From the NCBI GenBank assembly GCA_963819585.1, contig CAWFWP010000015.1:20886-84885 (forward strand): a DNA stretch of 64,000 bases, read 5' to 3'. The translations under genes were made by a program, and so were the position numbers. The notes below the pieces were generated by a model that ran no database searches, was not told where the DNA came from, and saw nothing but the letters and a program-made list of their open reading frames with translations. Shown here in pieces: positions 1,287-38,110 of the stretch. The DNA is from an uncultured Alphaproteobacteria bacterium. Its GTDB lineage: Bacteria; Pseudomonadota; Alphaproteobacteria; Rhodobacterales; Rhodobacteraceae. The first letter of the stretch is position 1. Every line of letters starts with the position of its first letter.

Positions 1287-1323
1287 AATGCGTATGGGCC
1301 GCATCAGCGGCCCATACGCATTT
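1287..1323 (+). terminator. Hairpin downstream of rpsO (AATGCGTATGGGCCGC-loop-GCGGCCCATACGCATTT)
   Basis: A perfect 16-bp inverted repeat sits right after the rpsO stop. The T-run that follows is short (TTT). Confidence 0.55.
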
Positions 1324-29256: not shown

Positions 29257-29343
29257 CGTCTCCTTGAATGGGTTCTGCTTCGGCGTCAGGTCCGCGTGCG
29301 GGGTCGCACGCGGACCTCCGTGCCGCCGTTTCGGCTCACAGGC

Positions 29344-31426: not shown

Positions 31427-31696
31427 TCAGTCGTTCACGTCCTTCTTCCAGACCTTCACCTGGCCCTCATGCCGCCCGAACACCGCCCTTAAGCCCAGCC
31501 ACGCCCCCAATGAGGCCACCGCGAACACCGCCAGCATCAGGCTCAGCGACCCGCCCAACACCCCCACCAGCACCAGCAGCCCGGTGATCGCCGCCCCGCC
31601 CGCAAATCCCAGGAACACGAACGCCGGCACCACCAGCTCCAGGATCGCCAGCAGCCCCGCCGCCACCATCCAGACCCACCATTCCTGCCACCACAT
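31427..31696 (-). CDS. NfeD-like short membrane protein
   Basis: MWWQEWWVWMVAAGLLAILELVVPAFVFLGFAGG…VKVWKK; its ATG overlaps the SPFH stop (TGATG). Confidence 0.6.
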   Translation of the reverse strand: MWWQEWWVWMVAAGLLAILELVVPAFVFLGFAGGAAITGLLVLVGVLGGSLSLMLAVFAVASLGAWLGLRAVFGRHEGQVKVWKKDVND

Positions 31697-32575
31697 CACG
31701 TCCGCCCCTTCAGCATCCTGAACGCGTCGCCGAACGCATCCAGCGCCTGCGCCGGCACGATGATCGTCTGCTTGCCCGCCCCCTGGCCCACCGCCGTCAG
31801 CGCCTCGACCTGCTTCAGCGCCACCTGATACTGCGCCGCCTCCAGCCCGTTCTCCTTGATCGCCACCGCGATCACCCCCGTCGCATAGGCCTCCGCATCC
31901 GCCAGAACCCGCCGCGCCTTCGCCCCCTGCTCCGCCGCGTAAAGCTCCGCATCCGCGTTCAGCTCCACCGCCCGCTTGCGCCCCTCGGCTTCCGTCACAT
32001 TCGCCCGCCGCGCCCGCTCCGCGTTCAGCTGCTGCAGCATCGCCGCCCGCGTCGCCTCGTCCAGGTTCACGTCCAGCAGTCTCCGCCCGCGTCACCTCGA
32101 TGCCCCAGTCATCCACCATCGCGCGCACCTGCTCGCGGATGTTCGCCGTCAGCGCCGTCCGGTTCGACTGCACCTGATCCAGCTCCATCTTGCCGATCTC
32201 GCTCCGCACGATCCCCGCCACCGTCGTCGCGATCGCCGCATCCACGTCGCGGATCCGGTACACCGTCTTTTCCGGCTCGGTGATCCGGTAGAACACGCTC
32301 GTCTCGACCTTCACCAGCACGTTGTCCGTCGTGATCGCGTCCTGCTGCGCCGTCGGCAGCTGCCGCTCCAGAATGCTGATCTTGTGCGCCACCCGGTCGA
32401 GGAACGGCACGATGAAGTTGATCCCCGGCCCCAGCACCGCGCGCAGCCGCCCGAAGCGTTCGACCACATGCTTCTCCGACTGCGGCACGATCCGCACGCC
32501 GAGGAAGATGCAGAGGATGAGGAAGGCGGCAAGGACAAGCCAGACGGAATTGCCGTTGAGAAGGTCGGCGGGCAT
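31696..32575 (-). CDS. SPFH/band-7 (stomatin/slipin-like) protein; frameshift near 32090
   Basis: MPADLLNGNSVWLVLAAFLILCIFLGVRIVPQSEKHVVERFGRL… continues in a second frame: …NLDEATRAAMLQQLNAERARRANVTEAEGRKRA… RBS AAGGAG. Confidence 0.8.
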
Positions 32576-32796
32576 GGGGGCTCCTTAAGGGGCGCTACGG
32601 TCGGCGCGGAGTATGCCGGGGGGAGGAGGCGGGGGGAAGGGGGGAGGGTGAGGATGGAAGAGGGTATCTCCCGATCCCAGAATGTATTGGGGTCCCAAGG
32701 TACTTGGCGCCACTCTACGGCTGCGAAATTCAACTTGCCGGCTTGTCAAGGATCAGTTAGCTTTGCGCCATTAAGATAGAGCAATTGGTTGCCCTC

Positions 32797-33333
32797 ATGG
32801 TTAGAAGCACACCCCGTTCTAATCGACCCTCAGAAACTCCTGCTGGAAACTCTCTACCATCTCGTCTTTGGCAGGAATTGTCGAATAAAATCATAGTTGC
32901 GATCTGCACATTGGCTGCCGCCGGCATTGGTAGCGCACTTTATCTGAGCTGGGATTCTATAAAAATAAAGCTGGGACAATCGGTCATCAATATCGTTGGC
33001 TCTGAACTTTCAAAAAAGAGCAGCAATATGTCAATCCTAGTTGGAGAAATCGTAGCCTCTGAGCTTTCCAAGAAGGACAGCGGCATCTCAAAATTAGTGG
33101 AAGCACGCGCCAAAGCTGCAATTAACCGAACATTTGGGGCCGTAAGCGCCGGCCAAGCATCAATAAATGCACAGTATAACGACCATATACTTTATGTATA
33201 TTGCCCGCCCTCCCACGAAGGTCAGTTAATTGTGTCGGTTGAGGGCATTGATACTGGTGAGCGGATAATTGTTACAATGGCAGAGCAGCCTCCAATTACC
33301 ATTGATAATAACGTCGACGAATCGCCCGTTTGA
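32797..33333 (+). CDS. Low-GC islet ORF A: single-pass membrane protein with internal SELSKK repeats
   Basis: TM segment IIVAICTLAAAGIGSALYLSW. The repeats are GSELSKKSSNMS and ASELSKKDSGIS. Codon usage is AT-rich, unlike the host. Confidence 0.45.
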   Translation: MVRSTPRSNRPSETPAGNSLPSRLWQELSNKIIVAICTLAAAGIGSALYLSWDSIKIKLGQSVINIVGSELSKKSSNMSILVGEIVASELSKKDSGISKLVEARAKAAINRTFGAVSAGQASINAQYNDHILYVYCPPSHEGQLIVSVEGIDTGERIIVTMAEQPPITIDNNVDESPV

Positions 33334-33412
33334 AATAGTGACCCCGTCATTAATGAAGCGAGACTCAAGTGGCGCAGGCCCGCAAACCATTATGACGGTA
33401 AACGAGGGTATT

Positions 33413-33568
33413 ATGAAGTATGCCTATCCAGTCAAATTTACATTGGCCGCAGATCCGGTAGCTGATGGGTCAATAGATGACTATCGGTCACCCGACGAAT
33501 TGACCTCACGAGTTTCGGTTAAATACCTTCTCCTTATTTCTCCTCCAATAGAGAAGAGCAATGGCTAA
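33413..33568 (+). CDS. Low-GC islet small ORF B (51 aa; alternative start at 33353)
   Basis: GAGGG SD 4-5 nt before the ATG at 33413: MKYAYPVKFTLAADPVADGSIDDYRSPDEL…. Confidence 0.2.
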   Translation: MKYAYPVKFTLAADPVADGSIDDYRSPDELTSRVSVKYLLLISPPIEKSNG

Positions 33569-34364
33569 AGCACTACAGATGCTCGGCAAACTTTTTTCAG
33601 TCCTATTTGTGGCCCTTATTGTCGGCGCGCTCGTATCCAGTTCTGTATCCGCAAACAGTTTGTTCGAGAGGGAGATCGAAATAAATGGCAGGAAAGGCCA
33701 CCTTATATACGTTAATCCAACTAGTTCAATAGTAAGAGTTATCTCGCCAAGATCGACTGCCTATGTCAAGTCTGATCAGACTCCCTCAATTCGAGATGGT
33801 TTGTTTTTGCTCGACTTAGTTAAGCGGCATAGACCTTTGGCAATTCTATCTGGCGGATACCTTAGTTCTTTCTCGCCCCCGAGAGCACTGGGCTTACTTA
33901 AGGTGGCAGGAAAGAGAATTTCGGGCGGGCACCGGAGTTGGCTGACAACCGGTATGTTCTGCACGTCAGGCGACCGCTACAAAATTCTGCCTGCAACTGG
34001 GTTAGAAGTCGCTGAACTATTTCCAGATTGTGTTCAGGCGGGGCCGTATCTGGTTAGGGACGGAGTTAATCGTTATAAGTCCCTTGACATGGTTGGTTCT
34101 GGGGAGAGAGAGGTTGCGCTTGCTCAGCAGAGTCAAGTTTTTTTATGTATTACTCGCAACGACAATTTAATTCTGGGGTTTGTAGATGGGGGGAATTCTG
34201 TTGGAGTTGCATCCTTTGCTCATGCGGACTTGGGTTGCGTCGATGCACTAAGACTAAGTGGAGGTATAACAGCAGGACTGTGGAGTGTTGATGTGGGGTT
34301 TTTGGGAAATAACGAAGTTCAACTCACGGATGCGATAGCAATATTTGCACGTGACGTCCCATAG
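33561..34364 (+). CDS. Low-GC islet ORF C: secreted phosphodiester glycosidase-like (DUF2233/NAGPA-like) protein
   Basis: Signal peptide MAKALQMLGKLFSVLFVALIVGALVSSSVSANS. Motifs …VQAGPYLVRDG… and …ALRLSGGITAGLW… resemble DUF2233 (…sGPlLv.dG…, …NLDGGGS…). The family assignment is made from memory. Confidence 0.5.
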   Translation: MAKALQMLGKLFSVLFVALIVGALVSSSVSANSLFEREIEINGRKGHLIYVNPTSSIVRVISPRSTAYVKSDQTPSIRDGLFLLDLVKRHRPLAILSGGYLSSFSPPRALGLLKVAGKRISGGHRSWLTTGMFCTSGDRYKILPATGLEVAELFPDCVQAGPYLVRDGVNRYKSLDMVGSGEREVALAQQSQVFLCITRNDNLILGFVDGGNSVGVASFAHADLGCVDALRLSGGITAGLWSVDVGFLGNNEVQLTDAIAIFARDVP

Positions 34365-34597
34365 ATCGGCCTCTCTGCCTATCAATGCACCGTGCTCACC
34401 TTAGCTCTGTCGCTCTGCAAACCCCCTCAAACCCCCGTAATCTCCTTCCGCGCCGAACTCCCCAGAAACGCCGACCGGCTCATCCGCCGCCCCTTCGCCG
34501 TCTCGTCGATGGCCCGTGAGCTACCCCCGGTCCAGCGAAATATTCGCCCGCAACTGCGCCCCCTCGGGGCCGATGTATGGCACAGTCAGCCGCATCG

Positions 34598-34632
34598 CCC
34601 CCTTCACTCATCCTTGTTCCGACTGTCGAGCA
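34598..34632. repeat. Imperfect direct repeat copy 1 (CTCACTCATCCTTGTTCCGaCTGTCGAGC) of the 3' end of the gene at 35028..35534
   Basis: 29 of 31 bases match 35022..35056. The reverse complement encodes …RLLDSRNKDE*, compared with …YQLDRRNKDE* at the gene end. Confidence 0.6.
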
Positions 34633-34639
34633 AACGTAG

Positions 34640-35001
34640 GGTGCGTGCTCGCACGCACCACTCCGTCCTCCACCACACCCCCTTCCCGATTTGACCCGTG
34701 ACAAATCGGGACGCGCCTGCCTGCCCGTGGCAGGCGCGTTACCGCGCCCGCCCAGTCAGGCGCGCCCCGATTGCAACCCACCGCGCCCTGCGGCACCCCT
34801 CTTGGCCGTCGCGGCGTTCCGCCGCTTTGGGCCAACCGGCATGGCCGACCTGCCACTGGCAGGTCGTCTGGTCATGCCGGACGGCGCGTGACTCCAACCT
34901 GTCATCCCCGCGAAAGCGGGGACCCAGCCCTTCGTCCCGGCGCAGGCCGGGACCCCGATGAACCGGGCGCGCTGCCAGCGAGGCCCCGGCCTCCGCCGGG
35001 G
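34640..35001. repeat. Cluster of at least 8 GC-rich hairpins (REP-like palindromes) in 360 bp of noncoding DNA
   Basis: Stems at 34640-59, 34685-710, 34712-38, 34811-25, 34847-65, 34901-23, 34934-53 and 34984-35001. Two have GNRA-like loops (TCCCCGC-GAAA-GCGGGGA; GTCCCGGC-GCAG-GCCGGGAC). Confidence 0.5.
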
Positions 35002-35021
35002 CGGGCGGGAAAAGGCCAATG

Positions 35022-35056
35022 CCCCCCTCACTCATCCTTGTTCCGCCTGTCGAGCT
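35022..35056. repeat. Direct repeat copy 2 (native 3' end of the brnA-like gene)
   Basis: See copy 1. Confidence 0.6.
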
Positions 35057-35534
35057 GATAGATCATCTCCTCGACCTGCTGCCATGTCGGTATCCGCTCC
35101 GTCTGCCGGGGCGGGGCTGCGTCCTCGAAGCGCTCTCCCAGCAGCTCCAGCGCCTCGCCGAAGGGCGGGCGCGGGCCGTCATGCACCTCCTCGCGGTGCT
35201 TGAAATGGTTCAGCGTCTCGGCCCCGCGCACGAAACCGGCCAGCCGCGCATGCATGAAGATTTTCAGCACGTCGGCCATCCGGCCCAGATGCCCGGTTCC
35301 GGTCGCGCGGAAGAAGCGGACAACATCCTCCTCGATCCGCATCGTCACCTTGATCCGTTTGCGGTCCGGTGTCGCCTTGGCGATGTCGTGCCAGTCCCTG
35401 GGGATGAACCCGCTCCGGTCGATGGCGTTGTGCAGGTCCCATTCGATGCGTCGCCCGACATCGATCATGTAGGTCGCGTGCGCCCGCTGCTTCGCGGTCT
35501 GTCTGGAATAGTCCGTCCTGATCTCGTCGGTCAT
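35028..35534 (-). CDS. BrnA-antitoxin-like (DUF4415) protein with a 68-aa C-terminal extension; no BrnT partner seen
   Basis: …DRKRIKVTMRIEEDVVRFFRATGTGHLGRMADVLKIFM… matches BrnA K..V.lRLD.DVv.fFKa.G.G.l.RmnavLR. RBS GAGGGGGG. Confidence 0.55.
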   Translation of the reverse strand: MTDEIRTDYSRQTAKQRAHATYMIDVGRRIEWDLHNAIDRSGFIPRDWHDIAKATPDRKRIKVTMRIEEDVVRFFRATGTGHLGRMADVLKIFMHARLAGFVRGAETLNHFKHREEVHDGPRPPFGEALELLGERFEDAAPPRQTERIPTWQQVEEMIYQLDRRNKDE

Positions 35535-38040: not shown

Positions 38041-38110
38041 TCACCGCCCCGGACCTGTCCGGGGCACTTGTTTCAAAGGCGCAACGGGCGCCGCGAAGGG
38101 GAGAAGACCG

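What the first reader, a model, noticed from the sequence alone, without database searches (positions are those of the whole stretch)
34598..35056. 31-bp duplication of a gene's 3' terminus flanking a 390-bp hairpin-dense noncoding block
The last 9 codons plus stop of the brnA-like gene occur twice, with 29 of 31 bases identical, separated by about 390 bp. That interval holds at least 8 GC-rich stem-loops, two with GNRA-like loops, of similar design (TCCCNGC-loop-GCNGGGA). It looks like a miniature non-autonomous element or a REP/BIME-type array inserted exactly at a stop codon, with its own copy of the target. It could also be a structured RNA locus.
Basis: seen in the sequence. Interest (0 to 1): 0.6.

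Follow-up and report, generated by a model that had tools for sequence, protein, structure and literature searches.

The report
Palindromic-repeat mosaic splitting a duplicated gene end
A 389-bp patchwork of dispersed palindromic repeats sits just past a small gene's stop codon, flanked by a 35-bp duplicate of the gene's end. It is mostly ordinary genome litter, but one 200-nt piece belongs to an uncatalogued, structure-conserving repeat family.

Summary
A 35-nt direct repeat (34597-34631 and 35021-35055, 33/35 identical) brackets 389 bp, the most hairpin-dense stretch of the window.

Copy 2 is the live 3' end of a DUF4415/BrnA-like gene. Copy 1 is the displaced older gene end. It still abuts a truncated hicB pseudogene, as in the sister lineage (L002/L086/L087), which has no insert. 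A 96%-identical relative (L005) carries the gene-proximal part of the block.

The block is not one mobile element. It is a mosaic:
- one GTAG-tagged REP
- two CGTC-tagged REPs
- one GC hairpin
- one ~200-nt composite unit (34679-34881)

The unit recurs in at least 50 unrelated contexts in Paracoccaceae-type contigs. It usually lies 7-97 nt after the stop of a co-oriented housekeeping gene. It shows strong compensatory base changes but no G-U over A-C excess. It has no Rfam match, no target duplication and no linked transposase.

No other copy of the whole block or of the 35-mer was found. None of about 80 orthologous loci repeats the gene end.

The duplication is best read as the scar of a one-off illegitimate recombination in a hypervariable islet hotspot. 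Overall this is a REP/BIME-like array. The unit family is the only potentially new part.

The parts
35028..35534 (-). DUF4415/BrnA-like gene (168 aa). Its last 8 codons and stop lie in repeat copy 2.
   Evidence: ORF. Pfam PF14384 at E=1.5e-8. 97 homologues, all PF14384, mostly Paracoccaceae.
35021..35055 (.). Direct repeat copy 2, the functional gene terminus. Gene sense: GCTCGACAGGCGGAACAAGGATGAGTGAGGGGGGC.
34597..34631 (.). Direct repeat copy 1, the displaced, non-coding former gene terminus (...AGTCGG...TGAAGGGGGC). It is contiguous with the hicB remnant, as in the empty-site relatives.
   Evidence: The TGA-A-GGGGGC form matches L002. No ORF ends here.
34632..35020 (.). 389-bp inserted mosaic of palindromic repeats.
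   Evidence: Hairpin density, folding z-scores. Absent in L002/L086/L087. Gene-proximal 90 nt present in L005.
34636..34661 (+). GTAG-tagged REP: GTAG-GGTGCGTG-CTCG-CACGCACC-AC.
   Evidence: Five copies at 96% identity within 8 kb of L059, and single copies in L015, L041 and L118. Visibly related GGTGCGC..GCGCACCCTAC hairpins (a diverged variant that gave no BLAST match) lie right after the orthologous stop in L004, L070 and L080, read by eye. Family definition from PMC3733652.
34679..34881 (+). Composite structured repeat unit of about 200 nt. The 5' half is conserved: hairpin CCCGATTTG..CAAATCGGG, then nested CGCGCCTGCC..GGCAGGCGCG inside AATCGGG.CGCGCCTG..CAGGCGCGCCCCGATT. The 3' half is variable: TTGGCC..GGCCAA 34802-34835, then a long hairpin 34836-34880.
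   Evidence: 69 metagenome loci share its arm. Full-length nhmmer matches in 51 distinct contexts, and one copy in the window. Alignment A6 and covariation.
34900..34926 (+). CGTC-type REP, TGTC variant: TGTC-ATCCCCGC-GAAA-GCGGGGAC-CCA.
   Evidence: 2-3 copies each in L010, L011, L044, L050 and L020, and one in L003. Exact 28-nt match on a Novosphingobium replicon. Definition.
34933..34956 (+). CGTC-type REP: CGTC-CCGGC-GCAG-GCCGG-GAC-CCC. Same orientation as the previous one (head-to-tail).
   Evidence: Conserved in L005.
34983..35002 (.). GC hairpin GCCCCGGC-CTCC-GCCGGGGC, the hairpin closest to the gene stop. No T-run follows it.
   Evidence: Similar hairpins at 38046 and 63636 in the window and in L016 and L066. 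No terminator-like site called.
34427..34585 (-). 5'-truncated, frameshifted remnant of a hicB antitoxin gene (RHH C-terminal part). This is the ancestral neighbour of the gene stop.
   Evidence: 92% identity over 129 nt to L003 9042-9169, inside or after its HicB-like gene. Full hicAB lies downstream of the orthologue in L001 and L006.
32650..34364 (+). Context only: a low-GC (44-50%) islet with a NAGPA-like ORF (33561-34364), lying between the hicB remnant and the Band_7 gene.

Best explanation
Identity of the block. The 389 bp between the repeats is a REP/BIME-like mosaic of independently dispersed palindromic DNA repeats. It holds a GTAG-REP, two CGTC-REPs, a GC hairpin and one ~200-nt composite unit of an uncatalogued family. 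It occupies the 3' intergenic space of the DUF4415/BrnA-like gene.

History of the locus:
1. Shown: the older state of the locus was gene stop, then GGGGGC, then truncated hicB. That junction looks like a microhomology deletion of a hicAB module.
2. Shown: in the lineage of the window, and of its 96% relative L005, this junction was broken open and the mosaic now lies in it.
3. Inferred: the break came from a single illegitimate recombination event. The likely forms are homology-facilitated illegitimate recombination or templated break repair during exchange of the variable islet downstream of this gene. One join lies 25 nt inside the gene end and the other lies 7 nt past the stop, so 35 bp ended up on both sides.

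Consequences. Copy 2 keeps the gene intact and copy 1 is a dead relic. The mosaic itself probably acts only as generic 3'-end hairpins (mRNA 3' protection or termination between convergent transcription units), if it does anything. The two 35-bp copies could mediate precise loss of the insert.
For: Repeat and hairpin density are real.

Empty site:
- L002, L086 and L087 (79% aa identity) have TGA(A)GGGGGC followed by the same hicB fragment that follows copy 1.
- Full hicAB lies downstream of the orthologue in L001, L003 and L006.
- L005 (96% aa identity) has the block's gene-proximal end. The event therefore lies between those two splits.

The block is composite:
- Each part has independent relatives elsewhere, while no locus shares several parts in order.
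- The block's 98-aa spurious ORF has no relative among 5.8 billion proteins.
- The hairpins fit published GTAG and CGTC REP definitions.

The unit family:
- It occurs in 51 distinct contexts.
- A co-oriented gene stops 7-97 nt upstream in 22 of 24 classifiable cases.
- All 10 tested upstream neighbours are housekeeping genes.
- No mobility gene was seen among 114 neighbouring ORFs.
- There is no target-site duplication around the copies.
- The window's copy alone lacks such an upstream gene. This fits a breakpoint at the block/copy-1 junction.

Other support:
- A 3-nt microhomology (GCT) lies at that junction. It is shared with the REP flank in L041.
- Both differences between the copies fit two alleles. 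A after TGA appears in copy 1 and L002; G appears in copy 2 and L005.
- The site is a hotspot. In 30 of 68 orthologous loci GC drops by at least 10 points right after the stop.
- No integrase or transposase was seen among the ten ORFs tested between 26 and 40 kb, or the four tested.
Against: - The recombination mechanism is inferred from anatomy only. No donor-type arrangement (gene, block, other gene, without copy 1) was recovered.
- The left end of the block in L005 is unknown because the contig ends.
- Illegitimate recombination is a permissive explanation that is hard to falsify from one locus.
- A 3-nt microhomology is weak evidence.
- Copy number of the repeats in this genome itself could not be measured. 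Within the 64-kb window none of the hairpins recurs.
- The unit's strong covariation could mean it has a specific function rather than being generic.
Confidence: 0.55

Rival explanations
1. The block is one non-autonomous mobile element (MITE-like) that inserted at the stop codon and generated a 35-bp target-site duplication by a widely staggered cut.
For: Direct repeats immediately flank the insert, and an empty site exists. From my own knowledge, some IS4-like elements (IS1634, IS1549) make very long, variable duplications.
Against: There are no terminal inverted repeats. No other copy of the whole block was found in 156 loci (about 1 Mb) or as an ORF in 5.8 billion proteins. Its components occur separately elsewhere. 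The one discrete repeated unit has no target-site duplication at about 45 other copies. No transposase was seen nearby.
Confidence: 0.07
2. The 35-mers are attL and attR of a site-specific (integrase-mediated) integration into the gene's 3' end. The block is the decayed remnant of that island (a CIME-like element), later colonised by REPs.
For: Integration into gene 3' ends with duplication of the terminus is classic for integrative elements. The gene's stop is the boundary of variable low-GC islets in 30 of 68 species. In L011 a 13-nt copy of the stop region (GCGGTGAGGGGGG) recurs 1.1 kb downstream, on the far side of a low-GC toxin-antitoxin islet. The two mismatches between the copies fit hybrid att sites.
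Against: No integrase or remnant was found in the window region. No repeat of the gene end was found in 80 other orthologous loci at 24 or more of 33 matches, or at 2 or fewer mismatches in 18 nt. Exact repeats of 11 nt or more were no commoner than for a control 37-mer. The C-terminus and its DNA vary between species, so a conserved attP would not match. The content between the repeats is entirely chromosomal repeat families. The L011 13-mer is not significant after testing about 70 loci.
Confidence: 0.12
3. A 35-bp tandem slippage duplication across the stop codon came first and was neutral. REPs and the unit then accumulated one by one between the two copies.
For: The block is made of at least 4 independently dispersed repeat types, so it was assembled in several steps somewhere. 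REPs cluster and often sit right after this gene's stop in other species.
Against: The first insertion would have had to hit exactly the boundary of the two copies. No relative shows adjacent duplicates. The unit is oriented against the only adjacent gene and lacks its usual co-oriented upstream gene. That is unexpected if it had inserted here in the usual way.
Confidence: 0.1
4. The core of the block (34679-34881) is a copy of a functional structured RNA family, such as a 3'-UTR element, terminator/insulator or sRNA. The locus is then essentially an RNA locus.
For: Structure is conserved with compensatory changes: 96.2% of cells paired against 86.4% in shuffles, 175 double changes against 47, and slid controls at 33-41%. 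In the 3' hairpin 15 of 17 pairs covary. Placement is biased to just after stop codons of co-oriented genes. In some copies the 3' hairpin is followed by a T-run.
Against: G-U equals A-C among non-Watson-Crick cells (24 against 23), so there is no strand signature of RNA. The helices are near-perfect palindromes with 1-3-nt centres, typical of DNA repeats. No Rfam hit was found here or at 14 other copies. No promoter-like or terminator-like site was called at the window copy. The window copy is antisense to the adjacent gene.
Confidence: 0.16

Closest known systems
REP sequences of the GTAG- and CGTC-tagged superfamilies (Di Nocera et al. 2013, PMC3733652)
   Same: 34636-34661 has an unpaired GTAG head, an 8-bp GC stem and a 4-nt loop. 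34900-34926 and 34933-34956 have a TGTC or CGTC head, a 7-8-bp stem, a 4-nt loop and a CCA or CCC tail. CGTC repeats are described as predominant in Alphaproteobacteria. All are extragenic, and relatives recur in other genomes.
   Different: The two CGTC units are head-to-tail, whereas head-to-head dimers predominate in the literature. Copy number in this genome is unknown. None recurs in the 64-kb window.
BIMEs of enterobacteria and RIME1/RIME2 of Sinorhizobium (intergenic mosaic elements; recalled from my own knowledge)
   Same: A mosaic of several palindromic units in a 3' intergenic region. The ~200-nt unit, with two or three large palindromes and tens of copies per genome, resembles RIME1 in size and design.
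   Different: There is no regular alternation of inverted REPs with defined linkers as in BIMEs. No sequence relation to RIMEs was tested. Flanking duplication of a gene end is not a feature of either.
REPINs mobilised by RAYT transposases
   Same: The unit's 5' half is built from inverted copies of one 16-nt motif (AATCGGGGCGCGCCTG). It has no target-site duplication, is vertically persistent, and its hairpins keep complementarity.
   Different: The unit is about twice as long and has an appended variable 3' hairpin module. No GTAG tag is evident at its arms. No RAYT was seen near any copy.
Gene-3'-end duplications made by integrative elements (e14 in icd; ICESt1/CIME in fda; recalled from my own knowledge)
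   Same: A displaced pseudo-3'-end and a functional replacement terminus flank the foreign DNA.
   Different: No integrase is present. The insert is only 389 bp of chromosomal repeats. The site is not reused with repeats in 80 relatives.
Homology-facilitated illegitimate recombination (Acinetobacter, pneumococcus, Pseudomonas stutzeri; see PMC3240628 for E. coli)
   Same: One end of the exchange lies in homology and the other at a short GC-rich microhomology. This can duplicate or delete recipient sequence at the illegitimate joint. It would occur here in a hotspot where islets are exchanged.
   Different: This mechanism is inferred, not observed. The donor configuration was not found.

Membership tests
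GTAG-tagged REP | Unpaired GTAG motif at one end, followed by a palindrome (stem 5-13 bp, loop 2-20 nt). | tested here: met
   34636 GTAG, then GGTGCGTG/CACGCACC with loop CTCG. Definition.
GTAG-tagged REP | Many copies per genome. | not testable with these tools
   The source genome was not retrievable. There are no further copies in the 64-kb window, but 5 copies within 8 kb of L059.
GTAG-tagged REP | Association with a RAYT (Y1 transposase) gene in the genome. | not tested
   Only 14 ORFs between 26 and 40 kb of the window were scanned against Pfam, and none matched a transposase. The rest of the window and the rest of the genome were not examined.
CGTC-tagged REP | CGTC (or TGTC/CCTC) head, 8-9-bp stem starting with A-T pairs, 4-5-nt loop, CCA-like tail. 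| tested here: met
   TGTC-ATCCCCGC-GAAA-GCGGGGAC-CCA and CGTC-CCGGC-GCAG-GCCGG-GAC-CCC. The stems are 7-8 bp, the first has one A.C mismatch, and the second lacks the A-T start.
CGTC-tagged REP | Predominantly head-to-head dimers. | tested here: not met
   The two units are head-to-tail, 33 nt apart start to start. Inverted pairs are seen in L010, L011, L044 and L050.
BIME | Regular alternation of inverted REPs of one family, separated by defined linker motifs. | tested here: not met
   Five different palindrome types occur in no alternating order.
MITE / non-autonomous transposon | Terminal inverted repeats. | tested here: not met
   The block ends AAACGTAGGG... and ...AAAAGGCCAAT are not complementary.
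MITE / non-autonomous transposon | Multiple copies of the whole element, each with its own target-site duplication. | tested here: not met
   No second copy of the block was found in the window, in 156 loci, or as an ORF. Genome-wide copy number was not testable.
Integrative element / CIME (att-flanked remnant) | Direct repeats (attL/attR) that include the target gene's end. | tested here: met
   35-nt repeat, 33/35 identical.
Integrative element / CIME (att-flanked remnant) | Integrase gene or its remnant, or recurrence of the same att core at island ends in relatives. | tested here: not met
   No integrase domain was found nearby. No repeat was found in 80 orthologous loci within 4 kb. Islands longer than 4 kb were not covered.
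Rfam RNA family | Covariance-model match at or near the gathering score. | tested here: not met
   Only sub-threshold miRNA-type chance hits at E of about 0.1. Nothing was found at 14 other unit copies.
Structured functional RNA (generic) | Compensatory base changes that support a conserved structure. | tested here: met
   21 of 52 pairs show double changes. Covariation score is 0.244, against 0.074 in shuffles and 0.04-0.05 in slid controls.
Structured functional RNA (generic) | Strand signature: G-U tolerated much more than A-C. | tested here: not met
   G-U 24 against A-C 23 overall, and 11 against 13 in the variable helices.

The most novel reading that the evidence does not exclude
The ~200-nt unit (34679-34881) may define an undescribed family of structure-constrained elements in Paracoccaceae. 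It has a near-invariant 95-nt 5' module and a freely covarying 3' hairpin module. It is placed 7-97 nt after stop codons of co-oriented housekeeping genes, and it has no transposase, no target-site duplication and no Rfam entry. It could be a functional 3'-UTR RNA (an insulator/terminator or a source of sRNA). Alternatively it could be a new kind of ssDNA-mobilised repeat whose hairpins are under selection. In either case the 35-bp duplication here might be a rare footprint of how such units move together with neighbouring DNA.
Probability: 0.2. Interest if true: 0.6.

Novelty: new member of a known kind. Interest (0 to 1): 0.35.

Why it matters
As a locus it matters little. It shows how a variable islet hotspot next to a conserved small gene accumulates toxin-antitoxin remnants, REPs and recombination scars. 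It also shows that a duplicated gene end need not mean a mobile element with a target-site duplication or an att site.

The by-product is more useful. A ~200-nt repeat family with clear compensatory evolution occurs at tens of copies per genome, in a fixed position after stop codons of core genes, in freshwater Rhodobacter/Tabrizicola-type bacteria, and it is absent from Rfam. If it is transcribed and functional, it would be a new 3'-UTR element class in Alphaproteobacteria. If it acts at the DNA level, it extends the REP/REPIN picture to a clade where CGTC-type repeats have no known mobilising enzyme.

Tried and rejected
- **Retrieving the source genome.** This would have allowed counting copies. 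Exact-protein look-ups for the gene and for the block's spurious ORF were not on record. A single-protein scan of GTDB representatives found nothing.
- **Species-level alleles in JGI metagenomes.** A search with a 24-nt gene-end pattern gave 0 hits.
- **Rfam.** The window region gave only chance miRNA-like hits, and 14 other unit copies gave nothing relevant.
- **Plasmid collection.** Three short hits for the block and one for the unit, so these are chromosomal repeats.
- **Viral contigs.** 0 hits for the unit arm.
- **Promoter and terminator scan.** Nothing called.
- **Recurrence of gene-end duplication.** None was found in 80 orthologous loci at three stringencies. The exception is a 13-mer in L011, which is not significant after multiple testing.
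- **Target-site duplication around unit copies.** None found.
- **Mobility genes near units.** None seen among 114 neighbouring ORFs.
- **Literature on Rhodobacter/Paracoccus mosaic repeats.** Nothing relevant found.
- **Tandem duplication of [35-mer + downstream].** Rejected because the sequences following the two copies are unrelated.
- **The block as decayed hicA and 5' hicB.** Rejected because there is no similarity, and copy 1 would then lie inside hicB.

Full report
**1. The observation**

The window contains a 35-nt direct repeat at 34597-34631 and 35021-35055. The copies share 33 of 35 bases and start 424 nt apart. A 29-mer from it, allowing 3 mismatches, occurs only at those two places in 64 kb, with none in 100 shuffles.

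The right-hand copy is the end of a minus-strand gene (35534..35028, 168 aa). That gene matches Pfam BrnA_antitoxin/DUF4415. The copy spans the last 8 codons (LDRRNKDE), the TGA and 7 more bases. The left-hand copy would read LDSRNKDE-TGA, but no ORF runs into it.

The 389 bp between the copies hold eight perfect stems of at least 7 bp. This is by far the most hairpin-dense bin of the window. The interval folds 5.5-6.7 standard deviations better than shuffles. Only two hairpins share the TCCCNGC/GCNGGGA design, and only one loop is GNRA.

**2. Which copy is original**

The gene family is widespread in Paracoccaceae. In more distant relatives a hicA-hicB toxin-antitoxin pair follows the gene (L001, L003 and L006).

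In the window, the DNA just left of copy 1 (34427-34585, minus strand) is the 3' part of hicB. It is 92% identical over 129 nt to L003. It carries a frameshift and lacks its 5' part.

The join reads TGA-A-GGGGGC-GATGC.... It corresponds to a GCGGGGGCGGTGCTG stretch inside intact hicB of L006. It therefore looks like a microhomology deletion between the G-run after the stop and a G-run inside hicB (this is inference).

The sister lineage (L002, L086 and L087; 79% protein identity) has the same arrangement with no insert. There the stop, (A)GGGGGC, one small REP and the same hicB fragment follow each other. Copy 1 plus its flank is therefore the ancestral gene end.

L005 is a metagenomic relative with 96% protein identity and about 94-95% DNA identity. 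It carries the gene-proximal 90 nt of the block directly after its stop. So about 424 bp (389 new plus a 35-bp duplicate) entered after the split from the L002 lineage and before the split from L005. Two mismatches in 35 nt fit that age.

**3. What the insert is made of**

It is not one element. BLAST of the block against 85, and later 156, related or pattern-selected loci gives hits to separate pieces only.

- **34636-34661** is a GTAG-headed REP. L059 has five 96%-identical copies within 8 kb, and single copies occur in L015, L041 and L118. Visibly related GGTGCGC..GCGCACCCTAC hairpins sit immediately after the orthologous stop in L004, L070 and L080 (read by eye; they gave no BLAST match).
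- **34900-34926 and 34933-34956** are CGTC/TGTC-headed REPs. Copies occur in inverted pairs in L010, L011, L044, L050 and L020.
- **34983-35002** is a plain GC hairpin.

These fit the published GTAG and CGTC REP superfamilies. The CGTC type is typical of Alphaproteobacteria and has no known dedicated transposase (PMC3733652).

The block has no terminal inverted repeats. Its 98-aa spurious ORF has no relative among 5.8 billion clustered proteins other than itself. Rfam gives nothing.

**4. The unexpected part: a 200-nt composite unit**

A metagenome scan with one arm of the largest palindrome returned 69 loci. Aligning them with flanks showed that window 34679-34881 is a single unit of 185-205 nt.

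- **The 5' half (about 95 nt)** is nearly invariant. It is built from inverted copies of AATCGGGGCGCGCCTG. Part of this conservation comes from how the copies were selected, because the scan pattern lies in this half.
- **The 3' half** is a TTGCC..GGCAA helix followed by a long hairpin. Its sequence differs from copy to copy while complementarity is kept.

The covariation figures are as follows:

| Measure | Observed | Shuffles | Slid controls |
|---|---|---|---|
| Cells paired | 96.2% | 86.4% | 33-41% |
| Double-change cells | 175 | 47 | not reported here |

In addition, 15 of the 17 pairs in the 3' hairpin carry compensatory changes.

nhmmer finds one copy in the window and full-length copies in 51 distinct contexts. 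At least three lie on one 431-kb contig, and copies occur in L084 and L078.

Its placement is regular:
- With a GC3-based gene filter, the left neighbour is co-oriented, with its stop 7-97 nt before the unit, in 22 of 24 cases.
- The right neighbour is convergent in 19 cases and tandem in 8.
- Ten of ten tested left neighbours are ordinary metabolic genes.
- The 114 neighbouring ORFs spread over 127 Pfam families, with no mobility function apparent.
- There is no target-site duplication, no Rfam match at 14 other copies, no viral copy and almost nothing on plasmids.

**5. RNA or DNA?**

The covariation alone would suggest an RNA. Several points argue against it:
- Among non-Watson-Crick cells, G-U (24) is no commoner than A-C (23).
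- The helices are near-perfect palindromes with 1-3-nt centres.
- No promoter-like or terminator-like site is called at the window copy.

That pattern is what REP/REPIN-type DNA repeats show, or simple terminator hairpins. It is not what a specific folded RNA shows. I therefore file the unit as a RIME/BIME-like composite repeat and give a functional RNA about one chance in six.

**6. How the 35-bp duplication arose**

This section is inference. Four models were weighed.

- **(a) Transposition with a 35-bp staggered cut.** The block is not a repeated entity, has no inverted ends, and its unit never shows a target-site duplication.
- **(b) Integrase att sites.**
  - In favour: the gene stop is a boundary of variable low-GC islets in 30 of 68 species, and L011 has a 13-nt copy of its stop region on the far side of a 1.1-kb toxin-antitoxin islet.
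  - Against: no integrase was found, none of 80 loci repeats its gene end within 4 kb, and the gene's C-terminus is too variable to serve as a conserved attB.
- **(c) Tandem 35-bp slippage followed by REP accretion.** The first insertion would have to fall exactly on the copy boundary. This model also does not explain why the unit here is antisense to the only adjacent gene and lacks its otherwise near-universal co-oriented upstream gene.
- **(d) One illegitimate recombination.** This could be homology-facilitated illegitimate recombination or templated break repair, during exchange of the islet region between strains. It joined a REP-rich 3' intergenic region to a point 25 nt inside the other allele's gene end.

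Model (d) fits the following points:
- the orphaned unit;
- the GCT microhomology at the block/copy-1 joint, a sequence also found beside the same REP in L041;
- the involvement of the G-run that also mediated the hicB deletion;
- the two copy differences, which behave like allelic differences (A after TGA in copy 1 and L002; G in copy 2 and L005).

I prefer (d), but it is permissive and rests on a single locus.

**7. An unexplained detail**

L005 differs from the window at 5 of the last 10 coding bases (AACACCGACAAA against AACAAGGATGAG), while both window copies agree with each other. Two readings are possible. Either L005's terminus was replaced, or the window's copy 2 was converted from copy 1 after the event. 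The data cannot decide between them.

**8. Verdict**

The finding is real, and its REP/BIME-type reading is right in kind. The 'single miniature element with its own target copy' reading is not supported. The locus is a recombination scar inside a hypervariable islet hotspot that is filled with ordinary palindromic repeats. The only part with potential novelty is the 200-nt structure-conserving unit family.

Noticed in passing
window 34679-34881; loci L088-L156, L078 5000-5215, L084 4480-4704: A ~200-nt composite repeat family with strong compensatory changes in its 3' hairpins. It lies 7-97 nt after the stop codons of diverse housekeeping genes, has no Rfam entry, and has at least 3 copies on one 431-kb contig.
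   Followed up: yes
window 35021-35030 and the gene stops of L006-L085: The stop codon of this gene family is followed by a run of 5 or more G in 31 of 68 species. In 30 of 68 the DNA immediately after it drops by at least 10 GC points into species-specific sequence. The gene end is therefore the edge of a hypervariable islet hotspot that often carries toxin-antitoxin modules (hicAB, ParE-like).
   Followed up: partly
L011 4488-4501 and 5613-5625: A 13-nt exact copy of the stop region (GCGGTGAGGGGGG) recurs 1.1 kb downstream, on the far side of a low-GC islet with a ParE/RelE-like pair. This may be a second case of gene-end duplication, but it is not significant after testing about 70 loci.
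   Followed up: partly
window 34427-34585 (minus strand): A truncated, frameshifted hicB remnant, 92% identical to L003 even though the neighbouring BrnA-like proteins are only about 58% identical. This suggests the hicAB module moves horizontally or is unusually conserved.
   Followed up: partly
window 31427-32575 (minus strand), near 32080: The Band_7/SPFH gene is split between two reading frames at residue 166/167 relative to the L001 orthologue, and it runs on into the next small membrane-protein gene. It is either a frameshifted pseudogene or a sequencing error.
   Followed up: partly
window 32650-34364: A low-GC (44-50%) islet in a 67% GC background. It encodes a NAGPA-like phosphodiester glycosidase ORF (33561-34364) and an unassigned 182-aa ORF (32785-33333). 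No flanking repeats were noticed.
   Followed up: no
L002, L086, L087 versus window and L004: The BrnA-like gene with its hicB remnant sits between DUF4170 and grpE in the L002 lineage, but between dinB and the Band_7 region in the window and L004. The small gene and the remnant have therefore moved together between genomic contexts.
   Followed up: no
L005 1030-1045 versus window 35028-35043: Five of the last ten coding bases differ between two otherwise 94-95% identical sequences, while the window's two repeat copies agree with each other. This hints at gene conversion or replacement of the terminus in one lineage.
   Followed up: partly
window 1287-1322 and 29288-29317: Two long perfect palindromes (16-bp and 13-bp stems) lie elsewhere in the window and are unrelated to the block's hairpins.
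   Followed up: no
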